From an uncultured bacterium (GTDB lineage: Bacteria > Eisenbacteria > RBG-16-71-46 > CAZHEV01), in NCBI GenBank assembly GCA_964531335.1, contig CAZHEV010000013.1, forward strand, positions 22,732 to 86,731: a DNA stretch of 64,000 bases, written 5' to 3'. Numbering within the stretch: the stretch's first letter is position 1; each line of letters begins with the position of its first letter. This document shows positions 8,507-45,765 of the stretch, one piece after another. The notes under the pieces were generated by a model. That model ran no database searches and was not told the DNA's origin. It saw only the letters and a program-made list of their open reading frames with translations. The position numbers were made by a program, and so were the translations under genes.

Positions 8507-9421
8507 TTATCCCCGGTCCCTTGTCTTCTTCAGCTTGTCCTTGGCCTTGGAGAGCGAGCGGGCCCGCCTCTGGATCCCGGCCCAAGGGTCCTCTCTTTGC
8601 GAGAGGCGCCGAAACAGGCTCTTGATATCGTACTTGGCCGAGCTCAGGCCCTTTCCGCCCAGCTCGTCCCAGTCCAGGGGCGTCGCCACCGGCGCGCCCA
8701 CCTTGGCCCGGACCGAGTAAGGCGCGACGCCGCTTTGCGCGTAGGCGTTTCTGTTTACGTCTATGAAGACGCGACCGCCCCTTTTGTTCTTCCTCTGCTC
8801 GGTGGTGCGGTTGTCCGGGTCGAGCTCGACGGCCAGTTCGGCGATGTGGTCCGCGAGCTTGCGCGTCGTGTCGAAAGTCGGACCTCTCCTTATGGGCACG
8901 ACCACGTGCAGTCCGGTAGATCCTGTGGTCATGACGTGCGGCACCAGCCCCGCCTCTTCTACTATCTCCCTCAGGGCCCGCGCGGTCTCGCACGCCGCCT
9001 TGAACCTGTCCCCCGGCGGATCTATGTCGAATATCATCCTGTCGGGGCGGCGGGGCCTATCGTGCTTGCATAGCATCGCGTGAAACGTGATACAGGCCTG
9101 GTCGGCCAGATAGACCAGGTCGGCCGTCTTCTCGCAGACGACGTGCCTTACCGTTCCGCCTTCTTTCTTCAGCGTGACGCCCTTTAGCCACTTGGGGAAG
9201 TAGTCAGATCGCTTCCTCTGGTAGAACTCCTTGCCCCCGAGCCCATCCGGCAGTCTCTGCATCGTGACGGGACGGCCCTTTACGTGATCGAGCATGACGT
9301 CCGCTATCCGGCGGTAGTAGTCGATGAGATCGTCCTTTGTAACGCCTGAGTCCTTGAACAGGACCTTGTCCTCGTTCGATGTCTCGACTGTGATCTTCCC
9401 GAAGGTGTGTTTGCCGGCCAC
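8507..9421 (-). CDS. LigD polymerase (primase-polymerase) domain protein, stand-alone
   Basis: GTG start at 9421 with RBS GAAGGAGG 10 nt upstream; motifs IFDIDP (DxD) and TTGSTGLHVVVPI typical of NHEJ PolDom. Confidence 0.8.
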   Translation of the reverse strand: MAGKHTFGKITVETSNEDKVLFKDSGVTKDDLIDYYRRIADVMLDHVKGRPVTMQRLPDGLGGKEFYQRKRSDYFPKWLKGVTLKKEGGTVRHVVCEKTADLVYLADQACITFHAMLCKHDRPRRPDRMIFDIDPPGDRFKAACETARALREIVEEAGLVPHVMTTGSTGLHVVVPIRRGPTFDTTRKLADHIAELAVELDPDNRTTEQRKNKRGGRVFIDVNRNAYAQSGVAPYSVRAKVGAPVATPLDWDELGGKGLSSAKYDIKSLFRRLSQREDPWAGIQRRARSLSKAKDKLKKTRDRG

Positions 9422-9426
9422 AGTGT

Positions 9427-9840
9427 CTAAGCCTCCTTCACGACTTTCTTGGGGCTCTTGTCCGATCTCAAGCCGAGAAAGCTGGGATGGCGGAGCCTCT
9501 CATCGCCCGTCCACCCGGTGAAGCTGACCTCGGCCACGAGCTTGGGGCTGACCCAGTGCGCGTCGGTGTCCTTGTCGATGCCCTTGTCGAAGGGGCAGGT
9601 CTCGCGCTCGATGGAGCGGAGCCCCTTGACGCCGCTCCGCCTTGCCTCCTTCGTCTGCATCCTGGGCTGTAGCCTCTTGAAGCTCGTGCGCGATCCCTTG
9701 AAGGCCATCACCTCGCCGCCGGCATCTCGGTGGCGTTGTATCGCCGGCGTCTTCGCCGGTCGCGTCGAGGCCCTCGACCCATCGCCGGGCTTCGGGCCCA
9801 TCAGCGGGCAGCCAGGGCCTCGTCGCGGCCCATGAGCCAC
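9427..9840 (-). pseudogene. Remnant of an ATP-dependent DNA ligase (LigD ligase, C-terminal OB-fold only)
   Basis: Only the last part matches ligase (...RETCPFDKGIDKDTDAHWVSPKLVAEVSFTGWTGDERLRHPSFLGLRSDKSPKKV); no adenylation-domain motifs in any frame between 9427 and 9907, and 486 nt is too short for a ligase domain. Frame differs from the PE gene. Confidence 0.5.
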
Positions 9841-9907
9841 CGGCGACCCTCCAGCCCATCGCGGGGAGCCAGTGCCTCCTCGCGGCGGTAACCGGGCTCA
9901 GCGCCGG

Positions 9908-10552
9908 TCAGTTCTTTCCCTCAGCCTCCTCCGCTATCTCCTCTATCGTCTTTCCGCTCAGAACGGACTCAGGCTCCGTGCTCACCGGGTTCCTGCGCGC
10001 GTCCGCGTCGTCGTCCTTCATCTTGATCAGCAGCCAGTTGTTCTCGCCGCCGCCCATCTTCGTCTTGACCAGCGCGTATCCGCCGCGGAGCTTCTTTCCT
10101 TCGAGACGCATTTCTATGCGGCCGTCCTCGAAGCATTTGTCCATGGGGATCTCATCTCCGTCGTCGTCTTCCTTTATGTTCTTGTATCTGCCCGTGTCCC
10201 AGACGAGCACGGTCCCCGCGCCGTAGTTGTCCTCGGGTATCACCCCCTCGAAGTCCGAGTACTCGAGAGGATGATCCTCGGTCAGCACGGCAAGACGCTT
10301 CTCGCGGGGGTCCGTGGACGGCCCCTTGGGCACCGCCCAGGATTTCAAGACGCCCTCTATCTCCAAGCGGAAGTCGTAGTGGAGCCTGCTCGCGTCGTGC
10401 TTCTGGATCACGAAGATGGGCTTACGTCCGGAGCTGCCCTTGGCCGGCTTAGGCCCCCTCTTGCCCGTTGTCCGCCTCTTTTCCTTTCCCGAGGGCTCCG
10501 GGGTCGACTTGAAATCGCGCTTTTTTTGGTACTCCTTGAGTTCCTTGGGCAT
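9908..10552 (-). CDS. LigD 3-prime phosphoesterase (PE) domain protein, stand-alone
   Basis: Internal ATG 10552 (MPKELKEY...); motif FVIQKHDASRLHYDFRLEIEGVLKSWAVPKGPS is the hallmark PE signature. Confidence 0.8.
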   Translation of the reverse strand: MPKELKEYQKKRDFKSTPEPSGKEKRRTTGKRGPKPAKGSSGRKPIFVIQKHDASRLHYDFRLEIEGVLKSWAVPKGPSTDPREKRLAVLTEDHPLEYSDFEGVIPEDNYGAGTVLVWDTGRYKNIKEDDDGDEIPMDKCFEDGRIEMRLEGKKLRGGYALVKTKMGGGENNWLLIKMKDDDADARRNPVSTEPESVLSGKTIEEIAEEAEGKN

Positions 10553-10621
10553 CTTTCGGGCTCCCTTGGCGTGAACGGGTGCTTGCGGCCTACTGATCAA
10601 TGGCCTGCGGCCCGCCCGGGG

Positions 10622-11350
10622 TCAACCCAGATAGTCCAACAGCTTCCGGGCGTCATCGACGGCGTAGGCGTTTTGATCGTTGTCGAAGTAACAGTAGACG
10701 TCCAGCCCCTCTCCGTTCCAGTCCGATATCCTGCGGGCCCACGCGCGCAGCGTGTTGCCGTGATAGCTGCCCTCGTACGCCCCCTCCGGGCCGTGCAGGC
10801 GGACGTACACGAAGTCGGCCGTGACCTCGTGCGGAGTCTCGCGCCTGTTCAGCTCGTAGATGCAAAAGGCCGCGTGGTGATCGGATAGGATCTCGTAAAT
10901 CTGATCGTCCCACCAGCTCTCATCTCGAAACTCGAAGGTGTACCTCGTTCCAGAGGGCAGTGATTTCAAGAAGGCGACGAGCCTCTCGGGGTCCGCTTTC
11001 CAGCGGGGGGGAAGCTGGAAAAGGACGGGGCCCATCTTGCCCTTCAGCCCGGCGGCCTGCGAGAAGAAACGCTCGACCGGCTCCTTTGGGTCCTTGAGCT
11101 TTTTCATGTGGGTGATGTACCGGCCGGCCTTGACGGCGAAGAGGAAGTCCTTCGGCGTGCGCTTTCTCCAGTCCTCGAAGGTCTTCTTCCCCGGCAGATT
11201 GTAGAAGGAGTTGTTTATCTCGGCGGTCTTGAAGTGTCCCCGGTAGTGCTCCAGCCACTTCTTCTGAGGCAGGTCCTCCGGGTAGAAAGGGCCCTGCCAG
11301 TGCTTGTATATCCATCCGGAGGTTCCGATATGGTACTTGCCCTTTGCCAT
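10622..11350 (-). CDS. DUF72 (YecE-like) family protein
   Basis: 242 aa; MAKGKYHIGTSGWIYKHWQGPFYPEDLP...WLEHY...FKTAEINNSFY; RBS GGGAG. Confidence 0.85.
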   Translation of the reverse strand: MAKGKYHIGTSGWIYKHWQGPFYPEDLPQKKWLEHYRGHFKTAEINNSFYNLPGKKTFEDWRKRTPKDFLFAVKAGRYITHMKKLKDPKEPVERFFSQAAGLKGKMGPVLFQLPPRWKADPERLVAFLKSLPSGTRYTFEFRDESWWDDQIYEILSDHHAAFCIYELNRRETPHEVTADFVYVRLHGPEGAYEGSYHGNTLRAWARRISDWNGEGLDVYCYFDNDQNAYAVDDARKLLDYLG

Positions 11351-11474
11351 GATGATCTCCCGGATGTGCGACTCTTCCGGCTGGCTTCCATCCCGGGCAC
11401 AGGCGGCCGCGGGCGTGTAAACGCGGTCGCGGAGCTCGCGCCGGCCCCGTTTTCTGTGACCGGCGTCCGGGAGC

Positions 11475-13004
11475 CTATGAACCCCTCTTGCCGGCCCGGG
11501 TCGTCTTAGCCGCGGTGCCGGAGGATCGCTTTCTGGAAGCAGTGCGCCGCTTTATGTAGAAGTAATAGCTGAGGAATTTCTCCAGAAAGTCGTCGGCCGC
11601 GCCGCTCTTGTCGTTGTACGCCACCGTCTCCTTGCCGATCATGAGCGCCGCGTAGGCCAGCTTGTCCCTGGGCCCGCCTTGCATGTTGTCCCGATAGTCG
11701 CGGTTCAGGGTGTTAACCTGAACGACGCCGTCCGAGAACCTGCTGTGACGCCTGCCGCCTTCTTCAAAGGCCGCCTCCATATAGTTCATTCTCGGGCCTC
11801 TTGGAGTGGGACGATCTCCAGGCTCCTTTGGGGGACTCTCGGGCATCCTGAGCTGGCCCTTCTTTTCCAGCTTGCGTTGCTTAATTGTCTTCTCCGATTT
11901 CTTTCGCCTACGCTTGGCCAATCCGCCCGGCAGCTCCAGGTCGGTGAACTCATCAAGGTCGAGAATCTCCCTGGCGAGCTTGAGCGCGCGCTTCTGGACG
12001 GAGGAGAGCTCTTTCTCCTGCTCTTCCTTCAACCTCATCTCGACCTCGGCCTCGATCTGCGGAGCGTGCCTGTCGAGGAGGCTAAGGAAGGAGATCCAGT
12101 CGTCATTGTCCTCGAAACCGGTGCGAGCGGGCAGCGGTTGAAGGAAATCGGCGTCGATGAAGCCCTTCACGTAGCCTGAGGCGTAGATGCTCTCCTCGAG
12201 GCCGTACGCATCGGCCTGGGAGACGTCGTCAACGATCACCACGCCCGTGTGGCGTATGTTTACCTTCCCCTTTCCTGAGGGATCGAAATAGAGCTCGATG
12301 CCCAAGGACTTCTCCTGCTCGCCGGGTACCGGTATCCGCTCCAGCCCGCCTGCGATTCGAGGGAGGTCGATGACCGACGGCTCGACAACATAGCGATTGC
12401 CGCCCTTCAGAATCTCCACCTCCAGCCACCCCCTTCGGAGATGGCTGTCGAATCGCTCGGCGAAGACCCTGCGGAGCCTCGAAGGATCCAATGGACCCCT
12501 GGGCTTGGTGGGATCCAACTTGAGCTCGGAGATGACGATTCTCTGGCCCGGCGCGGACAGGGATTCCTTCTTCAGCGCGCTGCGGAACTCCGCCTCAGGA
12601 CTCCCCTCCCGCAGGATTACTTTTAGCGTTTCGTCCTCGCCGTCTTTTCTGGACAGAAACGTGCACTTTCGACCGATCTGCTGAAAGCTGAAGATTCCAA
12701 TGCCGAGCTGTCCGATCTGGGGCACCTTGGTGCGCCTCTTTGCGGAGTCGGCCACTCTGTGCAGGGCCGTCTCGAACTCCCCGCGAGCCATTCCATAGGG
12801 ATAATGGATCTGAACGGAGCGCTTGGTCAGGTGAAAGGAGACCCTACAGACGGGGAGGGCGTTGCCGCTCTCGGCGGCCTTGAGGTGCTCGTCGATGGCG
12901 TTGCTTATATGCTCCTTCACGGCGTCGGCGGGGTTGCGGTAGAGCGTCCCCAGCCACTGAAGGGCGTTTGCGACGTTGAGCCTTATCGGCACTCGCTTCG
13001 GCAT
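11475..13004 (-). CDS. GHKL (Hsp90/MutL/MORC-like) ATPase domain protein, function unknown
   Basis: 509 aa; Bergerat-fold boxes: N-box EHISNAIDEH, G2-box GQLGIGIFSF; charged, coiled-coil-like middle (KEEQEKELSSVQKRALKLAREI) and C-terminal region without recognisable motif. Confidence 0.65.
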   Translation of the reverse strand: MPKRVPIRLNVANALQWLGTLYRNPADAVKEHISNAIDEHLKAAESGNALPVCRVSFHLTKRSVQIHYPYGMARGEFETALHRVADSAKRRTKVPQIGQLGIGIFSFQQIGRKCTFLSRKDGEDETLKVILREGSPEAEFRSALKKESLSAPGQRIVISELKLDPTKPRGPLDPSRLRRVFAERFDSHLRRGWLEVEILKGGNRYVVEPSVIDLPRIAGGLERIPVPGEQEKSLGIELYFDPSGKGKVNIRHTGVVIVDDVSQADAYGLEESIYASGYVKGFIDADFLQPLPARTGFEDNDDWISFLSLLDRHAPQIEAEVEMRLKEEQEKELSSVQKRALKLAREILDLDEFTDLELPGGLAKRRRKKSEKTIKQRKLEKKGQLRMPESPPKEPGDRPTPRGPRMNYMEAAFEEGGRRHSRFSDGVVQVNTLNRDYRDNMQGGPRDKLAYAALMIGKETVAYNDKSGAADDFLEKFLSYYFYIKRRTASRKRSSGTAAKTTRAGKRGS

Positions 13005-13024
13005 TCAGGCGTTCCCGTTTCGTA

Positions 13025-13219
13025 CTACTCTGTGTACGCGCTTAGCCGGACCATGATTATCGCGTCCGACTCGCACCTCCAGCCGGCCACCTCGGGTCCG
13101 GCATATTCTCCGAACTCCTCGCTCCAGCTGAAGGCCGTGATATGCGAGCATGTGACCGTGCCTGTCACTTTGTTCTCCACGTAGAATTCATTGTATTTGC
13201 CATAGATAAGAATGCCCAC
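13025..13219 (-). CDS. Small hypothetical protein (64 aa) directly upstream of the GHKL ATPase
   Basis: ORF with coding-like third-position GC bias; stop 20 nt before the GHKL start; no recognisable motif. Confidence 0.3.
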   Translation of the reverse strand: MGILIYGKYNEFYVENKVTGTVTCSHITAFSWSEEFGEYAGPEVAGWRCESDAIIMVRLSAYTE

Positions 13220-13463
13220 AGCACTTAGACTCCATTGTTTCGCGTCCCAGGGTGTGGTTCTGACCGCGCTCGCATGGGGGCCTCCTCATGTTACCCGTCG
13301 GGGCGTGTGGTGTGCTGGATTGGTACCACAGAAAACCGGCGGAATCAAGGGGATGCGCGGTTTTTCGCCGGGCCTGCAACGACGTCTCAACCGGGAAACC
13401 GCAAGAAAAGAGCAGGGCTCCGAGTTAGCCTCGCGGACCCTGCTCCTAGATGTCTTGCTTGAC

Positions 13464-13482
13464 GGGCCGGTGGCTCCGGCCC
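13464..13482 (-). terminator. GC-rich hairpin GGGCCGG-tggct-CCGGCCC just after the TadG-like gene stop
   Basis: Direct reading; 7-bp perfect stem; no U-tract, so terminator function is uncertain. Confidence 0.25.
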
Positions 13483-13499
13483 GTTCTCAGTTGGCGTAT

Positions 13500-14732
13500 C
13501 TACTCCACGAGCCTGGTGAGGAAGACGAAGCCGCCCGAGAAGCCTCCGCCGGTGACGGCGTCCGGATCCACGATCTGTAACAGCCGGCCGTAGACCGTGG
13601 TGGTGTTTTTGCTCCTCATGTCGCTCACAAACCAATGTGAGATCTTGACTATGGTGACAACCTTGTCGGATGAGCCCTGCACGTCCCCCGGGTGGAAGAA
13701 GGCTATGGCGCCGATCCGCGGGCAATATATCGTCTCGTCGTGGCTGTGTCCCTCGATCTTGCCTGTGTCCTCGTTGTAGGAAGAGGTCGGGCATTCGTCG
13801 ATGATGGTTGATGTACCTTGCTTCGTAGGACCCTGCATGTTGCCGTACTCGAGCCGTACCCTGTCACCTATCTGGACCAGGTAGGGGGACTTGTTAATTA
13901 TGAAATTCCTGTAGGCCGCCGCGCCGCTCTGAGGCCTCTCGCCCGTGTAGTAGTCGAGCGGAGGCCACCTCGTCGGGTAGAAGAACCCCGCCGTGAGCGC
14001 ATCCTGCGGAGTTCCCTGCTTGAGCACAAGCTCGAGCCCAGCGTCGTTGAAAGGCGAGGGCGGCCCCGTGCCGTATCCCGTAAGGATCGGATCGTAGAAG
14101 TCGCCCACGTCGTATTTCTTGTTGTTGTTCAGGTCGGCGTAGGGCTCGCCGGGATCCCACTCGCCGTTCTTGTTGAGATCGTCGAAGGGCTCGGGCTCGT
14201 CCCACACGCCGTCGCCGTCGTTATCCTGGAAGCGGTCGGGGAGGATCCACGGGAAGAACCCTCTCGTGCCTCCCGCGCCCACAAGCTGCGCCGTGGCGTC
14301 GGCCGAGACGTCCGCGATGTTGTCCCCGAAAGGCTTGATCAGTCCTATGAAATAAGTGCGAAGCGGGTCCTGGGTCGCCTCGGTCCTGTGGGTTCTGACC
14401 GTGACTTCCACAGCGGACGGAAACGATACGTCGGCTTCCGTAATCTCGACCGCGCCGATAGTGTGCTCTTTGAACGCGTTGTTCAACGCGGCCACCTCGA
14501 TCGCCACGTTCGTCGCGTTATGTTCGCGCTGATTGGAAGTCGTCGCGCCACTGGGCAGTAGCTCGTGCACGGCGGCAAGACACGCCGCGTCGGCGGCGTT
14601 TTGTAGCTGGGTCTTGGTTGTCTGGATCGCAGACATGTCTATGGCAAGCACCGCGGCGCCCATTATGAGGGCCATGGAAACCGCAACCCAGATTACCGCG
14701 ATGCCCCGTTCATCCTTGGCGATCTTTTTCAT
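13500..14732 (-). CDS. TadG-like (Tad/Flp pilus-associated) protein with Asp-rich Ca-binding-like repeats
   Basis: Start ATG 14732 with RBS GGGGGA; N-terminal MKKIAKDERGIAVIWVAVSMALIMGAAVLAIDMS typical of TadE/G-like proteins; DNDGDGVWD / NKNGEWDPGE repeats. Confidence 0.7.
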   Translation of the reverse strand: MKKIAKDERGIAVIWVAVSMALIMGAAVLAIDMSAIQTTKTQLQNAADAACLAAVHELLPSGATTSNQREHNATNVAIEVAALNNAFKEHTIGAVEITEADVSFPSAVEVTVRTHRTEATQDPLRTYFIGLIKPFGDNIADVSADATAQLVGAGGTRGFFPWILPDRFQDNDGDGVWDEPEPFDDLNKNGEWDPGEPYADLNNNKKYDVGDFYDPILTGYGTGPPSPFNDAGLELVLKQGTPQDALTAGFFYPTRWPPLDYYTGERPQSGAAAYRNFIINKSPYLVQIGDRVRLEYGNMQGPTKQGTSTIIDECPTSSYNEDTGKIEGHSHDETIYCPRIGAIAFFHPGDVQGSSDKVVTIVKISHWFVSDMRSKNTTTVYGRLLQIVDPDAVTGGGFSGGFVFLTRLVE

Positions 14733-14847
14733 GACTTGTCCCCCGATCTTTCGATCTCGGGTGTTTCCGCCGTTTTCACGATCCAAGACCCGTCCTTGGA
14801 CAGTGAGCCTCGAAGGCGATCTATTCCTCAAACTCGCAGATCTATGC

Positions 14848-15279
14848 CTATGAAGGTGGACTTCCCGCCTCGTCCTTCATCACACATCTGGCCGACAAAG
14901 GTATGGTTCCGGGGATTATCCCCAGAATAGGCCCCGCAAAGAACTCGAAGTCGTAATTGACCACCACCTCCACCGTGGCCAGCGTGCTGGGAGTGGTCGA
15001 CCACGTCAACTCAATGTCGCCCGAATCGAGCACGATACCGGCCGTGGAAAGGACATCGTTTATCCTTTGATAGACGTCCGTGGTGCCGCTCTTGCCGGTC
15101 ACGGCCATAACCCGGGCGCCCTCCCGGGCCGCCGTGTGCAAAAGATTGCTGTGCCAGAAAATGCGTCCGAAGTCGACGATCCCGAAAAGGACGATGAGAA
15201 GGATTGGCAGCACGAACGCCAACTCGACGACGGTGCTTCCAGAGCGCGAGCGCCTCAATCCGGATACAAACCTCTTCAT
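14848..15279 (-). CDS. TadE-like pilus assembly protein
   Basis: Start ATG 15279 with RBS AGGAGGTG; N-terminus MKRFVSGLRRSRSGSTVVELAFVLPILLIVLFGIVDFGR is the TadE-like motif. Confidence 0.75.
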   Translation of the reverse strand: MKRFVSGLRRSRSGSTVVELAFVLPILLIVLFGIVDFGRIFWHSNLLHTAAREGARVMAVTGKSGTTDVYQRINDVLSTAGIVLDSGDIELTWSTTPSTLATVEVVVNYDFEFFAGPILGIIPGTIPLSARCVMKDEAGSPPS

Positions 15280-15870
15280 GTGAACGCACCTCCTGAAGGC
15301 ACTACCTAAGGTACTCTTCAACAGGTATTACCACGATGCTTAATTATACCACAGCACCCTGTAAACCGACAACTTCGGAGGTTGGGGGGGCCTGCGAGGC
15401 CCCCTGCCGCGCCGTCATCCGGCGGGCTGCATGACCCACTCCCCGACGATCCTATTAGATTGCCGCCTTTGGCGAAAGATGCCGTCCTTCCCACTTTTCC
15501 CCGAGGCGTACCGGGCCCCCGGGGCGCGACCCTGGTGGGGGGCTGTCCGTAAGGCCCTGTCTTCCATAACAATCGGCAGCCATGCCGCCCCTATTTGGGA
15601 AAAGAGTCTTCGGCTATCCGCCCGGGTGGAATCCAGGCTTACTGCGCCCGCCGGGCGGCCTCAAGCGGCAAAAATTAAGCCACCCTGCTCGTTCGCCTGC
15701 CGTGGCGGCCGGTGACGTTTCGGACCTTGGGCAACCCCGGGGCTCAGAAAGTTGCTGAGGCCCCCTCCCTTGCGGCCTCCGGGGACGGATGGTCCGAGCC
15801 CGCCCCGCTTGACACAGGCGCCGACAGAATGGACATCAACCGGCAGTTCTGGCCGGACAGCGGAGACAAG

Positions 15871-16428
15871 CTATCTGAACTTCGCTTTCAGTCTCCCCCA
15901 GGACGATCTCTCGACCGGCACCTCTCCCACGATGACTACGATTCCCCTGCGGGTCGTATGCGGTATCGCGTTGTTGGAGCCGTCCCTGAGCTCGCTTTCT
16001 TCTATCTCCACGTAGGTCTTGCCTTCCGTGATGGCCTTGAAGGTGACCGTGAACAAAACTCCCGGTGTCATCACCACACCTCCAAGTATGGCCCCGCTGA
16101 CCTCGACGGTGCCGGGGCCGAAGGAGGTGTCGGAGTAGAAGAATGTCTCCTCTTCGCACTCCGCTGGCAGCGACCCTTCCTCCACAGAGACAAGCTCCAG
16201 GGAGTCGACGTCGAATGAGAACAAGATATCGTATCCCATAAGCTCGGTGGTATCGTCCTCGACATAGAAATGCAGGCCGAACTCGGTCCCGATGTCGACG
16301 ACGACCGAATCGGCCCGGACCGAGAGCTCCTGAGCCCACGGTGCACTGTGCGGCATGATCAAGCCGGCGGCCAGAAACAGCAATACCAACAACGATCTTG
16401 ACCTATCGAGGAACACGGCGGTCTCCAT
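15871..16428 (-). CDS. Secreted protein, cohesin-like fold suspected
   Basis: 185 aa with signal-peptide-like N-terminus; beta-rich composition; domain call is from memory only. Confidence 0.45.
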   Translation of the reverse strand: METAVFLDRSRSLLVLLFLAAGLIMPHSAPWAQELSVRADSVVVDIGTEFGLHFYVEDDTTELMGYDILFSFDVDSLELVSVEEGSLPAECEEETFFYSDTSFGPGTVEVSGAILGGVVMTPGVLFTVTFKAITEGKTYVEIEESELRDGSNNAIPHTTRRGIVVIVGEVPVERSSWGRLKAKFR

Positions 16429-16434
16429 TCTTGC

Positions 16435-17286
16435 TTACCTTGTCAGTATCAGCTTTCCTTTGAATTCCATCTCCTGTGTCCTCAGGACGGCCACATAGAC
16501 TCCGGCTGACACATTAACGCCGGCGTCGTTCTTCCCGTTCCATGAGAACGTGTTCGTGCCGCTTCCGAGCGGCCCGCGGTAGAGTCTTCTGACCACCCCT
16601 CCGGCGACGGAGCATATGAGGAGCTGTATCGTGTCGCCGGACCTGAGGCCGGCGCCGGTCGGCGGGGTGAAGGTGAGAGTGGCGACGGAATTGAACGGGT
16701 TGGGACGGCACCTGAAAGAGCTGGACGCGGGAATGCCCTCTCCGATTCCCGCCGCGGAGTTGACCCAGATCACAGCCGGGGCCGCCAGATCGACGGAGAG
16801 CTCGTTTCGATCTATGTCGTATACTTCCGCCTCGGCTATGGCTACCGGGCTCGAGCCGTTCTGCACGCCTTCAAAGACGAGAATGTAAAGCTCGCCCGGA
16901 GCCAGGATGAAGCTCCTGTGCCCAAGGACACAGTCCTCCACCCTCAAGCTGTCCGGCGCGATCAGCTCCCAGTTGAAAAAGGTCGAATAGGGGGCGTTCG
17001 CGTAAAGCTCTCCTTCTTCGACGGTAGTGCAGCTCACCACGCTTGGATCGAAGTACAACGTGCAGAACACGCAGCTCAGCGAGTCGACCGCGTCGTCAAC
17101 CACAACGCTCAGGGTGCAGCTTTGGCCCGGAGCGATGCAGGAGCTGGAAGGTTCCAGGGACAGCGTGGGAGAGGCGTCCGAGGCGTGACACCTGCTGGCG
17201 CCTAACACCGCCGTGAAAAGCCAAAGCACAAGGATCACGATCGGTATCCGTGCGAAATCCCCTCTATTTTCCGTCGCGTTTGCCAT
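16435..17286 (-). CDS. Secreted protein with C-terminal FlgD-Ig-like / T9SS-type sorting domain
   Basis: 283 aa; signal peptide; C-terminus CRPNPFNSVATLTF...GVYVAVLRTQEMEFKGKLILTR resembles the Por-secretion tail / FlgD-Ig family. Confidence 0.6.
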   Translation of the reverse strand: MANATENRGDFARIPIVILVLWLFTAVLGASRCHASDASPTLSLEPSSSCIAPGQSCTLSVVVDDAVDSLSCVFCTLYFDPSVVSCTTVEEGELYANAPYSTFFNWELIAPDSLRVEDCVLGHRSFILAPGELYILVFEGVQNGSSPVAIAEAEVYDIDRNELSVDLAAPAVIWVNSAAGIGEGIPASSSFRCRPNPFNSVATLTFTPPTGAGLRSGDTIQLLICSVAGGVVRRLYRGPLGSGTNTFSWNGKNDAGVNVSAGVYVAVLRTQEMEFKGKLILTR

Positions 17287-17567
17287 TGGGCTAACTCCCG
17301 GTACGGTGGCCTATGTTGGGCCCGCCGCCGCTTCATTGACTCCCCGTTGAGCTGACCGCAGACGCGGCGGCTTGCATGGCGCCCGCTACCGCCGCGTCGG
17401 TCCCAACGCGGCGGCCCAGCTGGGCTGGGCGTCAACGCCGTGGAGCCTGCTGCGTCGGCTCCATGGTGGTGGTCCTCACTGTAGCGATCCCACCGCGCCC
17501 GCGCCTCTTCGGCACAGGGCGAGGCGGAGGGCGGCGTGGCCGCCCTCCGCGCTCTCGACGCCTCCCG

Positions 17568-20500
17568 CTAGCGAAGCAGGATCATCTTCCTGGTGGCCGT
17601 GAACTCACCGGCGTCGATGCGGTAGAAGTACACGCCCGCGGGCACTATGGACCCGCCGGCGTCACGGCAGTTCCACTCGACATCGTGCCTTCCGGGGCCT
17701 CTTGTCTCGTCCACGAGCGTCCTCACCAGGCGCCCGCTCACGTCGAAGATGGAGATCGTGACCCGGCCGGCCTTCACTATATCGAAGGCGATGGTGGTCG
17801 CGGGGTTGAACGGGTTGGGATAGTTTTGCATCAGGGCACAGGTCTTGGGCGTGAACCTAGGGCCGAAGTCCTCGGCGCCCTGTATCTGGAAGCTCCTGTT
17901 CCCGATATCCCTGACCTCGATCTCGCCAAGCCTCGGCGAGCCTTCCGCGTCTCCGGCCTTGACGGTTATCCTCGCCACCTCGCCTGAGCTCTTGATCGGC
18001 ACGTTCACTCCCAGGGCCGCCACGCAGATATCCACGACGGACCCTTCTTTGTCGATCGTGCCGAAGAACAGGCTCTCGCCGCCGCCGAATATGCCGCCTC
18101 TTTCGATGGCCTCGATGGCGTCAGTCCCCGCCTCGAAGCTGACCCTGAAGCCTTTCAGGCTCTTGGCCCTGTTGTCGAGCCTGACCGAGAGAACGACATA
18201 TCCCTCCGGAGCGGAGGCATCTTCGATCTCGACTAGCTCGAAGCCGACCAGATCGTCGAGCTGCTCCCCGAACTTGCCCAGCTCAGCCAGCGTGATGGTC
18301 AGGCCCTGCGGGGCCACCTTGCCGTAGATCATGGCGAAGATCATCAGGTCCTCGAAGTTCACCACGTCGTCGGGCAGGGGGATGCCGTAGCTCGAGTTGT
18401 CGTCGGTGGGACCGAAGTCGCACTCGTTGTTCCAGCCGCCTCCTCCCTCGGAGACCGCGAAGGTCGAGGAGAACACGACCAGGTCGCTTGAGTTGACCAT
18501 GCCGTCGTAGGGACTATTGACGTCGCCGAGCCAGTAGCTCGTCGCCCTGTCCGCCGCTCCGGTGTCGAAGGCCGAGTAGTTGCCGGCCAGGTCGTATGAG
18601 AAGGCGGAGAAGTAGTAGATGTCCCTTCCGACCGTTACCGAGTCGTCGTAGGCCTCGGCCGTCACCTGGGCCACGAAGTCGCCCCCCGTCTCGTCGACGG
18701 GGTAGGCTGGGGCGGCCGTCGCGTACTCGGGGTAGTCCGTCCAGCCTGTCCTTCTCAGCTCCACCCCCGCGAAGGTCGCGTCGCCCACGGGGTTGGTCCA
18801 GGTGAGGTGTACCTTGTTGTGACCCGGGGCCGCGGCGAAGTCCGCAGGCGGATCGGGTGCGACGGTGTCCTTGTTGAACTGCCAGCTGTAGGTGTCGGGG
18901 GTGCCCTCGCCGTTCCAGTTTCCGGCATCGTCGGCCACCCTGAAGTAGACGGTGTGGCTGCCCTCGGACAGTCCCGCGAAACCGGGTAGGACCCAGCCGT
19001 CGTCGTTCCACTCGGTCGTGTCGATACCGGTGAACAGCGCGACCCAGCCGTCGGAGTCTATCTGGTACTCGGCCGTGTCGAGGTTTATGTCGTCATCGAA
19101 GCCGAAGTTGCTGAAGACGGGCGCGGTGTTGTACCAGCCGCCCTCCGCCTCGGCTATGGGCTCCATGGTGGGCACGGTGCAGTCTATCCTGACCGACCCG
19201 TTCGTCGAAGAGGTGGTCAGGGGGTTGTTGTCGAGGTCGCGGAGCTTGAAGTCGGTTACGGCGATGTCGCTTATCCCCTCGGCCACCGGGGTCAGCTCGA
19301 CGCTGAACAACACTCCGTTTCCGGTCGCGCCCGCGTCGCCTCCCAGGATGGCGCAGCTCACCTTGTAGGAACCGTCACCGTTGTCTACCGGATAGAACTG
19401 GGTGGTCCCGACGGAGGAAAGATACGAGCCCTCGGTTATGTCCGCGTTCGCCGAAGCGACCGTGGCGACCGCGTTGTCCACCGCAAAGGTCAAGTCGTAC
19501 CCGCGCACCTCTTCGCTCAGCCCGGCCCGCGTTATGACGAAATCGACGGTGACGTGATCGGTGCAGTTCGTGGTGACGTAGTCGGGCACCACGCCGGCAT
19601 GGTTTGTCGATCCCAGCCAGGGGTCGAAGTCGATGTAGTTCGTCACCGAATCGCCCAGGGCGCCTGCGTTGAGCGTCTCGTGCGCCGGGCCCGAGGCGTC
19701 CCCCCACCAGTTGTACTCGCCGTCCACCGTCATGTAGTCGCCGTCGGAGTACATCCCGAAGTTGTTGCCGGAGAGGAGGTTGTAGTTGGCGTCGGCGTTC
19801 GTGAAGATCGCGGTGGTCGGATCGTACGACACGAACCCTATCCCGATCTCGAAGCCCGTCACCTCGTTGCGGTCAACGGAGATGTCCAGGTCGTCGGGCA
19901 GGACGCCGGCCCACGCGATTATCCCGTAGCAGGCGGTGTTGTCGGTGCCGCTGAAGGTCACCACGTTCTCCGTGATGGTCATCGAGTGGGTGGCGGCCGT
20001 GCCGAAAAGCATGCTGCTTGCGCCGCTCTCCGGCTCCTCCAGCGGATCGAACGGCGAGGGCGGCAACTCCACGGGATCGTATATCAGTATCCCGTAGCTT
20101 CCGTCGCCGATGTTCTCGATGGTGAAGTCGTTGTCGCTGACGTTCATGGAGCTCGCCGCGTAGTCGTATATGCCGACCTGCGCGCCGGTCACCGTGTTGC
20201 CGGTAATGTCGAGGCTCGCGTAGTAGCTCAGTATGCTCGACGCCACCCAGCTTGCGCCGTCCCAGCCTATACCCGAGATCGTGTTGTCGTGGACCGTCCC
20301 CGATCCCTGGGCGGCCCAGACCTGCACCCCGTTCTGGGCTGTGACCGTGGTCGTGCCCGCTCCGGTTATGGTGTTGCCGGTCACGTCGACGGTCAGCGGC
20401 GTGTCGGTATCCGCGTTCAGCGCCATGGCGTTTTTCTGGAAATCGACGAAGGTGCAATCCGACACGTTTATGTTCCTGGAGACCGTGTCGTCGTTCCAGC

Positions 20501-21542
20501 TGTACAGCCCCACTCCGTGCTGGGTGCCGCTGAACGGCGTGTCCATGATTCCCGTTATGACGCAGTCATCCACCGTCCCCCCGGCGTTATTGAACGCGAT
20601 GCCGTAGAATCGGTAGTTGTCGTTGCCCTTGCCGGCGCCGTCGACCGTCAGGTGCTCCAGCGTGACATTTGCCGTGTCATGTATGTACACGATGGGATAA
20701 TTGTCTTTGCTCGTTGTGAAGTACTTCGCAAGAACGTCCGGAGAGAGTATGACGCTCGCGCCGCCTCCTCCGCCTCCGGAGACGGTGAGGTCCTTGGTTA
20801 TCTCGACCTGCTCCTCGTAGGTTCCAGCGGCCACCATCACAGTGCCGCCGTCAGCCACAGCGTCCACGCCTTCCTGGACTTTGGCAAAGGCATCGTAATC
20901 CCAGACGTGGCCGTCGTTTGCGCAGCCCGCGCAGTAGTCATCGTCGACGTAGGCCGTGTTGGGCGGGCCCGTGTCTATGCGGATCCTGTCCACGTAGAAG
21001 ACACCCGTGCCGTAATCTTCCGGCTCCAGGACTACGGCGACCGAGGCGACGTTGCCGCTGTTCGCCCAACCCGAGATGTCCATTGAGTAGTAGACCCACT
21101 CATAGGTCTTTGTCGCGTTGGAGATCTTTGGGCCGTCGACGTAGCCGCCCCACTCGTCATAGACCCTGAGGAAAAACTTCTCGCCGGAGTTGCCCAGCGG
21201 ATCGTCGTCCGGATACATGCCCATGAACCTGCACGACACGTTGCTGAAGCCGCTCCAGTCCTGCACCGAGGCGAAGGTCATGGTCACCCCGGTCCAATAG
21301 GGGCTCGCATTGTTGTGATAAGAGATCTTCATCGACTGGGTGCTGACCTCGTAGCCGGGGGTCTTCACGAAGACAGTGTCCTTGGTGTCGGATACCACCC
21401 AGGATGATCTGAGGTCGGCGTCGTCGACGTACGCGTCGAACTCATCGACGTCCTGAATTGCGGCGTCGGCGCCGGCGGGAATAAGGACGCCGGCGAAGAA
21501 GATCACAATCAGCAAAGAACAGATAACTGCAGAGAATCTCAT
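17568..21542 (-). CDS. Large secreted beta-helix repeat protein (1324 aa) with C-terminal FlgD-Ig-like / T9SS-type sorting domain
   Basis: RBS GGGAGG; signal peptide MRFSAVICSLLIVIFFAGVLIPAGADA; parallel beta-helix-like repeats; C-terminus YPNPFNPATTIAFDIV...GVYFYRIDAGEFTATRKMILLR. Confidence 0.75.
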   Translation of the reverse strand: MRFSAVICSLLIVIFFAGVLIPAGADAAIQDVDEFDAYVDDADLRSSWVVSDTKDTVFVKTPGYEVSTQSMKISYHNNASPYWTGVTMTFASVQDWSGFSNVSCRFMGMYPDDDPLGNSGEKFFLRVYDEWGGYVDGPKISNATKTYEWVYYSMDISGWANSGNVASVAVVLEPEDYGTGVFYVDRIRIDTGPPNTAYVDDDYCAGCANDGHVWDYDAFAKVQEGVDAVADGGTVMVAAGTYEEQVEITKDLTVSGGGGGGASVILSPDVLAKYFTTSKDNYPIVYIHDTANVTLEHLTVDGAGKGNDNYRFYGIAFNNAGGTVDDCVITGIMDTPFSGTQHGVGLYSWNDDTVSRNINVSDCTFVDFQKNAMALNADTDTPLTVDVTGNTITGAGTTTVTAQNGVQVWAAQGSGTVHDNTISGIGWDGASWVASSILSYYASLDITGNTVTGAQVGIYDYAASSMNVSDNDFTIENIGDGSYGILIYDPVELPPSPFDPLEEPESGASSMLFGTAATHSMTITENVVTFSGTDNTACYGIIAWAGVLPDDLDISVDRNEVTGFEIGIGFVSYDPTTAIFTNADANYNLLSGNNFGMYSDGDYMTVDGEYNWWGDASGPAHETLNAGALGDSVTNYIDFDPWLGSTNHAGVVPDYVTTNCTDHVTVDFVITRAGLSEEVRGYDLTFAVDNAVATVASANADITEGSYLSSVGTTQFYPVDNGDGSYKVSCAILGGDAGATGNGVLFSVELTPVAEGISDIAVTDFKLRDLDNNPLTTSSTNGSVRIDCTVPTMEPIAEAEGGWYNTAPVFSNFGFDDDINLDTAEYQIDSDGWVALFTGIDTTEWNDDGWVLPGFAGLSEGSHTVYFRVADDAGNWNGEGTPDTYSWQFNKDTVAPDPPADFAAAPGHNKVHLTWTNPVGDATFAGVELRRTGWTDYPEYATAAPAYPVDETGGDFVAQVTAEAYDDSVTVGRDIYYFSAFSYDLAGNYSAFDTGAADRATSYWLGDVNSPYDGMVNSSDLVVFSSTFAVSEGGGGWNNECDFGPTDDNSSYGIPLPDDVVNFEDLMIFAMIYGKVAPQGLTITLAELGKFGEQLDDLVGFELVEIEDASAPEGYVVLSVRLDNRAKSLKGFRVSFEAGTDAIEAIERGGIFGGGESLFFGTIDKEGSVVDICVAALGVNVPIKSSGEVARITVKAGDAEGSPRLGEIEVRDIGNRSFQIQGAEDFGPRFTPKTCALMQNYPNPFNPATTIAFDIVKAGRVTISIFDVSGRLVRTLVDETRGPGRHDVEWNCRDAGGSIVPAGVYFYRIDAGEFTATRKMILLR

Positions 21543-44553: not shown

Positions 44554-45765
44554 TCACAGCCCGGTCGCGAGCTGCACGGTCACCACGAGGTGATCCTGCA
44601 GCGCCGCCGCGCTAGGGTCTCCTTCCCGCTGCCCTACGTAGGTGCCTTCCACACTGAGCTTGTTGGCGTGGCCCGAGAAGAAGTAGTTCAAGCCGAGGCC
44701 GCCGACATGAGTGTTGTGGTCGCTGTCATCGACGTGAATCAACTCGTAACGCGCGAAGGGCTGAAGCCGACCGGGTCCGACTTCGCCCGATATAAGGTAG
44801 CCGCCCCTGAAAGACACGACGTCGGCCTCGGTCCCGGGGGAGAGGGCCGTGAAGTTGACGGTGCCGGGAGCGCCGCGGATGTTAATGTAGGACCCAACCA
44901 GCGTCAATCCTCCTCCGCCGCCGATGGGCCGGTCGTAGTGGACGTCGGCGGTCCATGAGAAATAGTCGTCTTCGCCTGTATCGAAGGTGAGCTGCTGGGA
45001 GTCAAAGCCGCCGCCGATTGATAGGACCTGCCGTTTGCCGAGGTAGGTGCCCTGGTTGAACCAGCCGGTCTCGGGCTCCAAAAGAGACAGGCTCAAGCGC
45101 CCCGCGATGCGAGGGGCGCCGCCGGGATTGCGGGTCTCGTCGTCCACGCCGTCGGCGACCATGAGGCGATACTGCGCGAGCCCGCCCTCGATGTTTCCCC
45201 ACAGTGTGGCGCCGTCATCGCGGCCGACCGTGCTCGGGTAGAAGATCCCCCCGCGATATCCGCCCTGAATCCAGTCCAGATCGGTGGTGAGGAGCGCCTT
45301 GGTCGAGGTCGTTCCGTAGTTTCGAGTGAAGGGGATGTACATCCGCCCGACCTGGAGCTGCATCGCGCCCTCAAGGAGTTTGACGTAGACCCATCCGTCT
45401 CGAAGTGCGAGCCCGGTGCCAAGGCCCACGCCGGGTTTGTCCAGGCCCCTCTGTCCGAAACGGTCCCCGGCGATGTGGACGAAGAAACCGTACCAGGGGG
45501 TCGCCGTGCCGTTCACGGACAGGTACACTCGCCGCAGCAAGAAGTCGTGGAGATCCTGATCCGCGTCGCCGTCCGATGCGTCCTGTACGTACTGGTACCA
45601 TCCCTGCGCCCACAGACCGATGCTCAATGAGCGGTCTCCGTCGCGATATATCTCCTCTGCAAAAGCGGCGCCGGAGGCACCGAGCGCCAGTAGAACGGCC
45701 AGACCTGCCGCGACGGGCACGGTCCTCGACTTGCGGCTGCGAAATGTTTGTCTTGGTCTGCCCAT
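44554..45765 (-). CDS. Putative outer-membrane beta-barrel / porin-like protein
   Basis: ATG 45765 with RBS GGAGGA; signal peptide ...AAGLAVLLALGASGAAFA; Gly/Tyr/Thr-rich beta-like composition. Family not resolved. Confidence 0.45.
   Translation of the reverse strand: MGRPRQTFRSRKSRTVPVAAGLAVLLALGASGAAFAEEIYRDGDRSLSIGLWAQGWYQYVQDASDGDADQDLHDFLLRRVYLSVNGTATPWYGFFVHIAGDRFGQRGLDKPGVGLGTGLALRDGWVYVKLLEGAMQLQVGRMYIPFTRNYGTTSTKALLTTDLDWIQGGYRGGIFYPSTVGRDDGATLWGNIEGGLAQYRLMVADGVDDETRNPGGAPRIAGRLSLSLLEPETGWFNQGTYLGKRQVLSIGGGFDSQQLTFDTGEDDYFSWTADVHYDRPIGGGGGLTLVGSYINIRGAPGTVNFTALSPGTEADVVSFRGGYLISGEVGPGRLQPFARYELIHVDDSDHNTHVGGLGLNYFFSGHANKLSVEGTYVGQREGDPSAAALQDHLVVTVQLATGL

What the first reader, a model, noticed from the sequence alone, without database searches (positions are those of the whole stretch)
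11475..13004. Stand-alone GHKL (MORC/MutL-like) ATPase with an uncharacterised C-terminal half
Clear Bergerat-fold N-box and G2-box in the first 150 residues, then about 350 residues with a charged coiled-coil and no recognisable domain. Prokaryotic MORC-like GHKL ATPases have been linked to restriction and defence contexts; here it sits with a tiny partner ORF and DNA-end enzymes.
Basis: partly seen in the sequence, partly recalled or inferred. Interest (0 to 1): 0.45.

Follow-up and report, generated by a model that had tools for sequence, protein, structure and literature searches.

The report
Orphan Hsp90/MORC-like GHKL ATPase gene
The gene is real and encodes a member of a small, unstudied, horizontally scattered family of Hsp90/MORC-like ATPase proteins that probably clamp DNA, but its "tiny partner" and its DNA-repair neighbours are coincidental.

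Summary

After it come one long helix, a basic disordered linker, a family-specific 90-aa C-terminal domain and a basic tail. Foldseek's best 50 solved structures are all Hsp90/HtpG/TRAP1.

Motif II is degenerate: the adenine-binding Asp position is Glu in most members and His here. The MORC S5 signature is absent. No defence-system, MutL or HtpG model matches.

The family is small and patchy, found only in uncultured bacteria. It is absent from the phage, plasmid and viral collections searched.

The 64-aa ORF has no homologue anywhere. The LigD/DUF72 adjacency is found in none of 89 related loci. About half of the relatives instead carry a start-overlapping DNA-binding partner, which this window lacks.

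Best reading: an ATP-gated dimeric DNA clamp from a mobile accessory or conflict module. The fold is well supported; the function is inferred. Moderate interest.

The parts
11475..13004 (-). Complete gene, 509 aa plus stop codon: a GHKL-transducer protein of an uncharacterised family
   Evidence: ORF listing. There are 461 homologues, about 500 aa long and 55-81% identical over more than 95% of the length. GC3 is 0.78, like the neighbouring genes.
12495..13004 (-). GHKL (Bergerat-fold) domain, aa 1-170. Holds the N-box (E31/N35/D38), a degenerate motif II (H67-Y-P-Y-G-M), the G2 box (G98/G101/G103) and T115.
12105..12494 (-). Transducer (S5-type) domain, aa 171-300. Includes the invariant R251-H252 and the near-invariant flexible loop P290-L-P-A-R294-T-G-F-E-E-N300, a candidate gamma-phosphate sensor.
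11961..12104 (-).
   Evidence: AF2 predicts helix H301-348 with pLDDT about 78-90.
11793..11960 (-). Disordered basic linker, aa 349-404 (16 Lys/Arg in 56 residues)
   Evidence: pLDDT below 50 for residues 353-404; charge count. This is the variable region of the family alignment, and the ~590-aa variants carry a ~90-aa insertion here.
11517..11792 (-). Family-specific C-terminal domain, aa 405-496 (three strands then three helices). Invariant polar residues: E410, H420, S421, N431, D436, K458, E459, D465, E475.
11475..11516 (-). Basic C-terminal tail (9 Lys/Arg and no acidic residue in the last 24 aa) plus the stop codon. In 35 of 120 relatives the tail carries an AT-hook-like RGRP/RPRK motif; this copy does not.
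   Evidence: Two members give a weak Pfam AT_hook hit.
13005..13499 (-). 495-nt upstream intergenic region with one sigma-70-like site (13218..13190). It also holds the orphan 64-aa ORF (13025..13219), which is probably not a gene.
   Evidence: Promoter scan: 1 site found against 0.5 expected, so weak evidence. There is no Rfam match in this region. The ORF has no homologue, and its GC1 of 0.48 is below the 0.53-0.61 of the real genes.

Best explanation
The gene encodes a stand-alone member of a small, horizontally dispersed, uncharacterised family of Hsp90/MORC/SMCHD1-like proteins.

Architecture: a GHKL nucleotide-binding domain, a transducer (S5-type) domain, a long helix, a basic disordered linker, a family-specific C-terminal domain and a basic tail.

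Proposed mechanism, all inferred from the architecture and from how Hsp90, MORC and MutL work:
1. The C-terminal domain holds two chains together permanently.
2. ATP binding drives transient dimerisation of the N-terminal GHKL domains, with E31 as general base, N35 binding Mg2+, and R294 or R251 from the transducer sensing the gamma-phosphate.
3. The resulting ring closes around DNA that is held by the basic linker and tail.
4. In about half of the relatives a dedicated DNA-binding partner, translationally coupled to the ATPase gene, directs the clamp to particular DNA. The window copy lacks a partner and would bind DNA by itself.

The module behaves as an accessory or conflict element, for example silencing or sensing foreign DNA, and not as housekeeping or NHEJ machinery.

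Shown here: the gene, the fold, the domain layout, the conservation pattern, the phyletic patchiness and the partner genes in relatives. Inferred: dimerisation, ATP turnover, DNA binding and the biological role.

For: Catalytic residues: E31, N35, D38, G98, G101 and G103 are invariant in 120 relatives.

DNA link:
- basic linker and tail;
- AT-hook-like tails in 35 of 120 relatives;
- an upstream, same-strand partner with two HTH motifs and a helical domain in 31 of 89 non-redundant loci, whose ORF abuts or overlaps the ATPase start in the loci checked, and which is fused to the ATPase in P0074;
- a different start-overlapping partner (RHH-like region plus an Mrr_N winged helix) in 5 loci;
- one locus with an AIPR-Mrr_N protein upstream.

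Accessory and mobile character:
- only 34 loci among 185,579 species genomes, all MAGs from at least 8 phyla;
- variable flanks;
- toxin-antitoxin modules next to the two closest relatives, AbiEi/AbiEii and HEPN/MNT;
- an integron integrase directly upstream and divergent in 8 Acidobacteria loci.
Against: - No experiment exists, and no defence-system model matches.
- Motif II is degenerate. The Asp position is Glu in 88 relatives, Asp in 18, Ala in 7, His in 2 and Tyr in 2, and it is His in this protein. The first Gly of the motif is an invariant Pro. ATP binding by this copy is therefore uncertain.
- The window shows no partner, no toxin-antitoxin module, no integrase and no tRNA. Its neighbours are metabolic, pilus and surface genes.
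- GC3 is fully ameliorated.
- Many relatives lie among ordinary metabolic genes.
- The invariant polar residues of the C-terminal domain look more like an active or binding site than a simple dimer interface.
- HTH genes upstream of a gene can be mere transcriptional regulators.
Confidence: 0.45

Rival explanations
1. It is a miniaturised Hsp90-like protein chaperone or remodeller that acts on protein clients and not on DNA. The upstream HTH genes in relatives would then be only transcriptional regulators.
Against: - Scores against the Hsp90 model are far below its cut-off (19 bits against 455), and NCBIfam lists no Hsp90/HtpG model for the window protein.
- The middle region is about 130 aa, far smaller than the roughly 250-aa Hsp90 middle domain (the latter figure is established knowledge).
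- All three partner types carry DNA-binding domains, and one partner is fused to the ATPase.
- AT-hook-like tails occur in 35 of 120 relatives.
Confidence: 0.18
2. The GHKL module regulates an effector built into the same chain. The family-specific C-terminal domain would be a new small nuclease or other enzyme, as in paraMORC3 / GHKL-Shedu (VcSduA), where a GHKL ATPase controls a C-terminal nuclease.
For: The C-terminal domain has an unusually dense set of invariant polar residues (E410, H420, S421, N431, D436, K458, E459, D465, E475) and an H/N alternation at position 434. GHKL-nuclease fusions are documented in PMC2292703 and PMC12137116.
Confidence: 0.12
3. It is a nucleotide-independent pseudo-ATPase. 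At least in the window clade, the GHKL fold serves only as a scaffold or DNA-binding platform.
For: The window protein has His at the motif II Asp position, and so does its closest relative P0002; the next closest, P0003, has Tyr. Seven other members have Ala. The first Gly of DxGxG is an invariant Pro. Mutating this Asp abolishes ATP binding in Hsp90 and GyrB (established knowledge, not tested here).
Against: The catalytic Glu, the Mg-binding Asn and the whole G2 box are invariant across 120 sequences that are only about 50-60% identical overall. That is hard to explain without nucleotide chemistry.
Confidence: 0.12
4. It is a functional partner of the adjacent DNA-end-processing genes (DUF72, LigD phosphoesterase, LigD polymerase), forming a repair operon.
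For: The genes share a strand, and only 124 nt separate the ATPase stop from the DUF72 start.
Against: None of 89 non-redundant related loci has LigD, Ku or DUF72 beside the homologue. The two closest relatives have quite different neighbours. The local LigD is itself decayed, with its adenylation domain deleted.
Confidence: 0.04

Closest known systems
Prokaryotic MORC / paraMORC GHKL-S5 ATPases (Iyer, Abhiman & Aravind 2008, PMC2292703)
Hsp90 family (HtpG, TRAP1, GRP94)
   Same: These are the best Foldseek matches over 343-502 alignment columns and the best profile-to-PDB sequence matches for the N-domain. The C-terminal domain resembles the HtpG C-terminal domain. Both have a charged flexible linker.
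   Different: No significant sequence membership (19 bits against a 455-bit cut-off for the relative P0096; no Hsp90/HtpG model listed for the window protein). The middle region is much smaller. The charged linker lies before the C-terminal domain, not between the N and M domains. It has basic or AT-hook-like tails and DNA-binding partners. It is rare and patchy, not universal.
SMCHD1 ATPase module (eukaryotic chromatin silencer)
   Different: There is no SMC-hinge domain, the protein is much smaller, and it is bacterial. The resemblance is fold-level only, at 12% identity.
GHKL-Shedu VcSduA / paraMORC3 (PMC12137116)
   Same: A single-gene module with an N-terminal GHKL domain, a clamp-like middle domain and a C-terminal domain of its own.
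   Different: VcSduA has canonical motifs I-IV and a DUF4263 PD-(D/E)xK nuclease domain. The window protein has neither, and it has no PADLOC match.

Membership tests
GHKL superfamily (Bergerat fold) | Motif I / N-box (ExxxNxxD: catalytic Glu and Mg-binding Asn) | tested here: met
   K30-E31-H-I-S-N35-A-I-D38-E. E31, N35 and D38 are present in 120 of 120 relatives and align to the TRAP1, HtpG and MutL N-boxes.
GHKL superfamily (Bergerat fold) | Motif II / G1 box (DxGxG, with the Asp binding adenine N6) | tested here: not met
   The window sequence is H67-Y68-P69-Y70-G71-M72. Read without a gap, position 67 is the Asp position: Glu 88, Asp 18, Ala 7, His 2, Tyr 2, Thr 1 of 120. The first Gly is Pro in 114 of 120. 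The motif is degenerate in the whole family, and the acidic residue is lost in the window clade.
GHKL superfamily (Bergerat fold) | Motif III / G2 box (GxxGxG) | tested here: met
   G98-Q-L-G101-I-G103, with all three Gly present in 120 of 120.
GHKL superfamily (Bergerat fold) | Three-dimensional Bergerat fold | tested here: met
MORC family sensu Iyer et al. 2008 | GHKL domain followed by an S5-fold domain | tested here: met
MORC family sensu Iyer et al. 2008 | S5-domain signature GhXhhpXXRhl (definition from PMC2292703) | tested here: not met
   A regular-expression search over 120 family members finds 1 match, in P0074, at a position that is not conserved. The window protein has none.
MORC / paraMORC restriction-modification context | Conserved neighbourhood with SF-II helicase, DNA methylase or restriction-fold nuclease (PMC2292703) | tested here: not met
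   Neighbour clustering over 89 non-redundant loci finds only DNA-binding partners, an integron integrase and toxin-antitoxin genes recurring. The window neighbours are DUF72, LigD fragments and a TadG-like pilus gene.
paraMORC1-5 | Family-specific C-terminal extensions (RE-fold nuclease in paraMORC3, TIR in paraMORC4, HxH domain in paraMORC5) or an ExxxH motif in the S5 domain (paraMORC2) | tested here: inconclusive
Hsp90 / HtpG | Sequence membership above curated model thresholds | tested here: not met
   NCBIfam lists no HtpG/Hsp90 model for the window protein at E <= 0.1. The relative P0096 scores 19.4 bits against the PRK14083 cut-off of 455.
Hsp90 / HtpG | N-M-C three-domain architecture with a C-terminal dimerisation domain | tested here: inconclusive
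MutL | MutL equivalog model; C-terminal dimerisation/endonuclease domain | tested here: not met
   13 bits against a cut-off of 693. hhalign against a genuine MutL gives a probability of 4%. No MutL C-terminal domain was found.
Known anti-phage defence systems (PADLOC-DB v2) | A match to any system-component HMM | tested here: not met
   No hit for the window protein or for the relatives P0047 and P0096. For P0074 there are only weak hits, to the HTH model mad1 and to TmtA (E=0.002-0.004).
Integron gene cassette | An attC site (RYYYAAC ... GTTRRRY imperfect inverted repeat) downstream of the ORF | tested here: not met
   A pattern search in 260 nt downstream of 13 Acidobacteria homologues finds none. 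The fold of the window's 124-nt downstream spacer is not significant, z=-1.5. No attC covariance model was available.

The most novel reading that the evidence does not exclude
The family is a bacterial counterpart of the eukaryotic MORC/SMCHD1 silencers. In this reading it is a compact Hsp90-like GHKL clamp that is dimerised at its C-terminus and carries AT-hook-like basic arms. It would load onto particular DNA (foreign, modified or AT-rich), recruited in some lineages by an HTH or Mrr_N partner, and would compact or silence that DNA in an ATP-dependent way without any nuclease. That would be a non-destructive, chromatin-style defence or regulatory mechanism in bacteria.
Probability: 0.15. 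Interest if true: 0.7.

Novelty: new variant of a known kind. Interest (0 to 1): 0.4.

Why it matters
GHKL-transducer ATPases run mismatch repair, topoisomerases, Hsp90 chaperoning and MORC/SMCHD1 gene silencing. The bacterial relatives described so far (MORC and paraMORC) are tied to restriction-type nucleases and helicases.

This family differs in four ways. It has no recognisable nuclease or helicase. Its C-terminal domain is unique to it. Its adenine-binding motif is altered. Its partners are interchangeable small DNA-binding proteins.

If it proves to be an ATP-gated DNA clamp, it would be a minimal, tractable model for how MORC- and Hsp90-like machines engage DNA, and possibly a new nuclease-free conflict module.

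For annotating this window, the practical result is more modest: a real accessory gene of unknown function, not part of the NHEJ cluster, with no small partner protein.

Tried and rejected
- PADLOC: no defence-system model matches.
- tblastn of the protein against 50,697 phage records and 72,556 plasmid records, and a scan of IMG/VR: no relative. There is therefore no evidence that the family is carried by a phage or plasmid.
- The 64-aa ORF as a partner: rejected.
- A LigD/DUF72 functional link: rejected because the adjacency is not conserved.
- The HTH partner of relatives was searched in the whole window by tblastn. The only recurring weak hit, at 44947..45090, lies inside a porin gene, so it is chance.
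- attC sites downstream of homologues next to integron integrases, and downstream of the window gene: none found by pattern or by fold.
- Rfam scan of 10500..14000: one sub-threshold chance match and nothing in the intergenic regions.
- tRNA scan of the whole window: none.
- CapK/CapS (a GHKL-type kinase with a repressor, PMC13373217) was considered as an analogue of the partner-plus-GHKL pair. It was rejected because CapK is an anti-sigma-factor-type kinase without a transducer domain.
- A zincin metalloprotease reading of the C-terminal domain: rejected because there is no HExxH motif and identity is 5%.
- Profile searches of the C-terminal domain against PDB and Pfam found nothing consistent.

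Full report
**1. The observation**

The window holds an ATG-initiated ORF of 509 aa at 11475..13004 on the minus strand. It is a real, conserved gene. An identical protein is on record, and 461 relatives were found at E <= 1e-3. The 120 best are almost all about 500 aa long and 53-81% identical over more than 95% of the length.

Its base composition is like that of its neighbours: GC3 is 0.78 against 0.78-0.86.

- the N-box, K-E31-H-x-S-N35-A-x-D38-E;
- the G2 box, I-G98-x-L-G101-I-G103-x-F-S-F-Q-Q.

Pfam HATPase_c_3 matches residues 26-132 at E=1e-4. That is 22.8 bits, marginally below the 25-bit gathering score. All 31 aligned relatives hit the same model, the best at 6.4e-9.

**2. Anatomy**

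An AF2 model built on 31 family sequences has a mean pLDDT of 74.5. It divides the chain as follows:
- GHKL domain, aa 1-170;
- a beta-rich second domain, aa 171-300;
- one long helix, aa 301-348;
- a disordered linker, aa 349-404, with 16 Lys/Arg in 56 residues;
- a compact C-terminal domain, aa 405-496, of three strands followed by three helices;
- a basic tail.

Foldseek ranks only Hsp90-family chains in its top 50, at E about 1e-12 to 4e-10, over 343-502 alignment columns, with TM 0.28-0.47. The family profile's best PDB sequence hits are the TRAP1 and HtpG N-domains at E=0.005.

A profile of this domain, searched against 1.84 billion representative proteins, finds only 94 sequences. In all of them the domain sits at the C-terminal end of ~480-620-aa proteins or in short fragments. 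So the domain is specific to this small family.

**3. Departures from canonical GHKL and MORC proteins**

Motif II (DxGxG) reads H67-Y-P-Y-G-M. Both HMMER (against TRAP1 and HtpG) and hhalign (against a genuine MutL found in locus L022) place a gap at the Asp. Read without a gap, position 67 is the Asp position.

Across 120 relatives that position is Glu 88, Asp 18, Ala 7, His 2, Tyr 2 and Thr 1. The window protein has His, as does its closest relative P0002, and the next closest, P0003, has Tyr. The first Gly of the motif is Pro in 114 of 120.

The catalytic Glu, the Mg-binding Asn and the G2 box are invariant, so nucleotide chemistry is probably retained in the family. ATP binding by this particular copy remains an open question.

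The MORC-defining S5 signature GhXhhpXXRhl (defined in PMC2292703) is absent. One of 120 sequences matches the pattern, at a position that is not conserved.

No NCBIfam MutL or Hsp90 model comes near its threshold. PADLOC has no match.

**4. Context in the window**

Downstream on the same strand lie:
- DUF72 (10622..11350);
- a LigD phosphoesterase domain (9908..10600);
- a 137-aa ORF that retains only the last ~64 residues of a ligase OB fold (9427..9840);
- a LigD polymerase domain (8507..9421).

Upstream there is a 495-nt spacer, then TadG-like and TadE pilus genes and surface proteins. The window holds no tRNA gene. No integrase or toxin-antitoxin gene was seen among the annotated neighbours.

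The 64-aa ORF in the spacer is an orphan:
- its only database match is itself;
- no related locus encodes anything similar;
- its GC1 is low, at 0.48;
- the only sigma-70-like site of the region lies inside it.

**5. Context elsewhere**

I collected 121 related loci. By the identity of the ATPase they reduce to 89 non-redundant loci.

Nothing resembling LigD, Ku or DUF72 recurs beside the homologue. What does recur is listed here.

- **HTH partner.** A same-strand gene directly upstream encodes one or two HTH motifs plus a conserved C-terminal helical domain. It occurs in 31 non-redundant loci, about half of the 62 loci with at least 800 nt of upstream sequence. Its ORF abuts or overlaps the ATPase start in the loci checked. 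In P0074 it is fused to the ATPase.
- **Second partner type.** A different gene, also overlapping the ATPase start, encodes an RHH-like N-terminus and an Mrr_N-type winged helix. It occurs in 5 loci.
- **AIPR.** One locus (L039) has a 551-aa AIPR-Mrr_N protein ahead of the HTH partner.
- **Integron integrase.** A genuine integron integrase (TIGR02249, 447 bits) lies divergent and directly upstream in 8 Acidobacteria loci. Several copies are reduced to fragments. No attC-like site was found downstream.
- **Toxin-antitoxin and related genes.** These lie nearby in several loci, including both closest relatives: AbiEi/AbiEii in L007 and HEPN/MNT in L002. PIN, MqsA-like and retron-like RT genes occur elsewhere.

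The window clade (the window, L007 and L002) and the Acidobacteria clade lack any partner. tblastn with the partner finds nothing credible in the 64-kb window. The one recurring weak hit lies in a porin gene.

**6. Distribution**

Only 34 loci were found among 185,579 species-representative genomes. All are MAGs, from Acidobacteriota, Gemmatimonadales, Chloroflexota/Dehalococcoidia, Armatimonadota, Saccharibacteria, Firmicutes, Zixibacteria and Aminicenantes.

That scan relies on exact peptide patterns, so it undercounts. Even so, the picture is of a rare, patchily distributed and laterally transferred accessory gene.

No relative occurs in the phage, plasmid or IMG/VR collections. Flanking genes differ from locus to locus and often include ordinary metabolic genes.

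**7. Most likely mechanism (inferred)**

By analogy with Hsp90, MORC and MutL, the protein probably forms a dimer held constitutively through its C-terminal domain. ATP binding would drive transient N-terminal dimerisation, closing a ring.

E31 and N35 are the expected catalytic pair. R294 lies in the invariant flexible loop at the end of the transducer domain, and R251 is also invariant. Either could sense the gamma-phosphate.

Several features point to DNA, not protein, as the substrate:
- the basic disordered linker and tail;
- AT-hook-like RGRP/RPRK tails in 35 of 120 relatives;
- three different types of DNA-binding partner;
- a partner-ATPase fusion.

The neighbourhood themes (toxin-antitoxin genes, integron integrase, Mrr_N, one AIPR locus) and the patchy phylogeny suggest an accessory or conflict function. 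None of this has been shown, and the window copy sits in a non-island context.

**8. Rivals**

- An Hsp90-like protein chaperone. This draws on the strong Foldseek and sequence affinity to Hsp90. The small middle domain and the DNA-binding associations count against it.
- A GHKL-regulated built-in effector, because the C-terminal domain has many invariant polar residues. No nuclease or hydrolase fold was detected.
- A pseudo-ATPase scaffold, because of the degenerate motif II. The invariant catalytic residues argue against it.
- An NHEJ partner. This is effectively refuted by the lack of conservation.

**9. Comparison with what is known, and novelty**

The protein works like a MORC/paraMORC or Hsp90-type GHKL clamp. 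It fails the membership tests for MORC (S5 signature and restriction-modification neighbourhood), MutL, HtpG and every PADLOC system.

I found no paper describing the family in the library. That library is incomplete, so I cannot exclude a description elsewhere.

I rate it a new variant of a known kind. The fold class and the general theme are known. The C-terminal domain, the altered motif II and the DNA-binding partners are distinctive. Interest is moderate, at 0.40.

Noticed in passing
window 8507..10600 (minus strand): The LigD gene is decayed. The phosphoesterase domain (9908..10600) and the polymerase domain (8507..9421) are intact ORFs. Between them only the last ~64 aa of the ligase OB fold survive (9427..9840). 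NCBIfam PRK05972 positions 2-196 and 580-868 of 870 are matched, so roughly 220 aa, including the adenylation domain, have been deleted.
   Followed up: partly
L017, L020, L021, L022, L026, L056, L060, L061 (for example L021 309..1304 minus strand, next to the homologue starting at 1432): In 8 non-redundant Acidobacteria loci an integron integrase (TIGR02249, 447 bits against a cut-off of 265) lies divergent and directly upstream of the GHKL homologue, which is the position of a first cassette. Several of the integrase genes are fragments. A simple RYYYAAC...GTTRRRY search found no attC downstream.
   Followed up: partly
L004 2310..2990; L034 5255..6001; fused in P0074 (aa 1-230): A conserved upstream partner with one or two HTH motifs and a C-terminal helical domain (consensus ..LLLLEDELRWFRD..DIGYISSLLTML.DEDKF.RWL.LTT.RF..F). 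It occurs in 31 of 89 non-redundant loci, and its ORF abuts or overlaps the ATPase start in the loci checked. It is absent from the window.
   Followed up: partly
L043 1961..2440; L044 3177..3662; L048 3315..3995; L051 5017..5562; L052 5334..5804: An alternative partner of about 160 aa, overlapping the ATPase start. It has an RHH-like N-terminus (weak SepA-family hit), a basic linker and a C-terminal Mrr_N-type winged helix. This shows that DNA-binding partners have been exchanged within the family.
   Followed up: partly
L039 3591..5246: A 551-aa AIPR (abortive-infection) protein fused to an Mrr_N domain lies directly upstream of the HTH partner and the GHKL gene. This is the only full-length AIPR association seen.
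   Followed up: no
P0096, P0106, P0115; loci L097-L121 (homologues of about 590 aa): One clade, with identified members from Dehalococcoidia and Saccharibacteria, carries a beta-rich insertion of about 90 aa, possibly Ig-like, inside the basic linker. P0010 and P0161 carry extra C-terminal extensions of about 115-130 aa and unknown type.
   Followed up: no
window 13025..13219 (minus strand) and 13190..13218: The 64-aa ORF is called as a gene on the source contig but has no homologue among 5.8 billion proteins. A sigma-70-like site (TGGGCA-17-TACAAT) lies inside it, about 185 nt upstream of the ATPase start codon.
   Followed up: yes
window 13500..21542 (minus strand): Upstream there is a run of surface and pilus genes: TadG-like, TadE, a cohesin-domain protein, a FlgD_ig protein, and a 1324-aa beta-helix protein with a T9SS C-terminal sorting domain. 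This suggests an FCB-group-like or candidate-phylum host. They are unrelated to the finding.
   Followed up: no
L125 9318..10414: A retron-like pair (HTH gene plus RVT_1 reverse transcriptase) and a DUF4145 gene lie within 5 kb of a ~590-aa homologue, in a run of unannotated small genes that could be a defence island.
   Followed up: no
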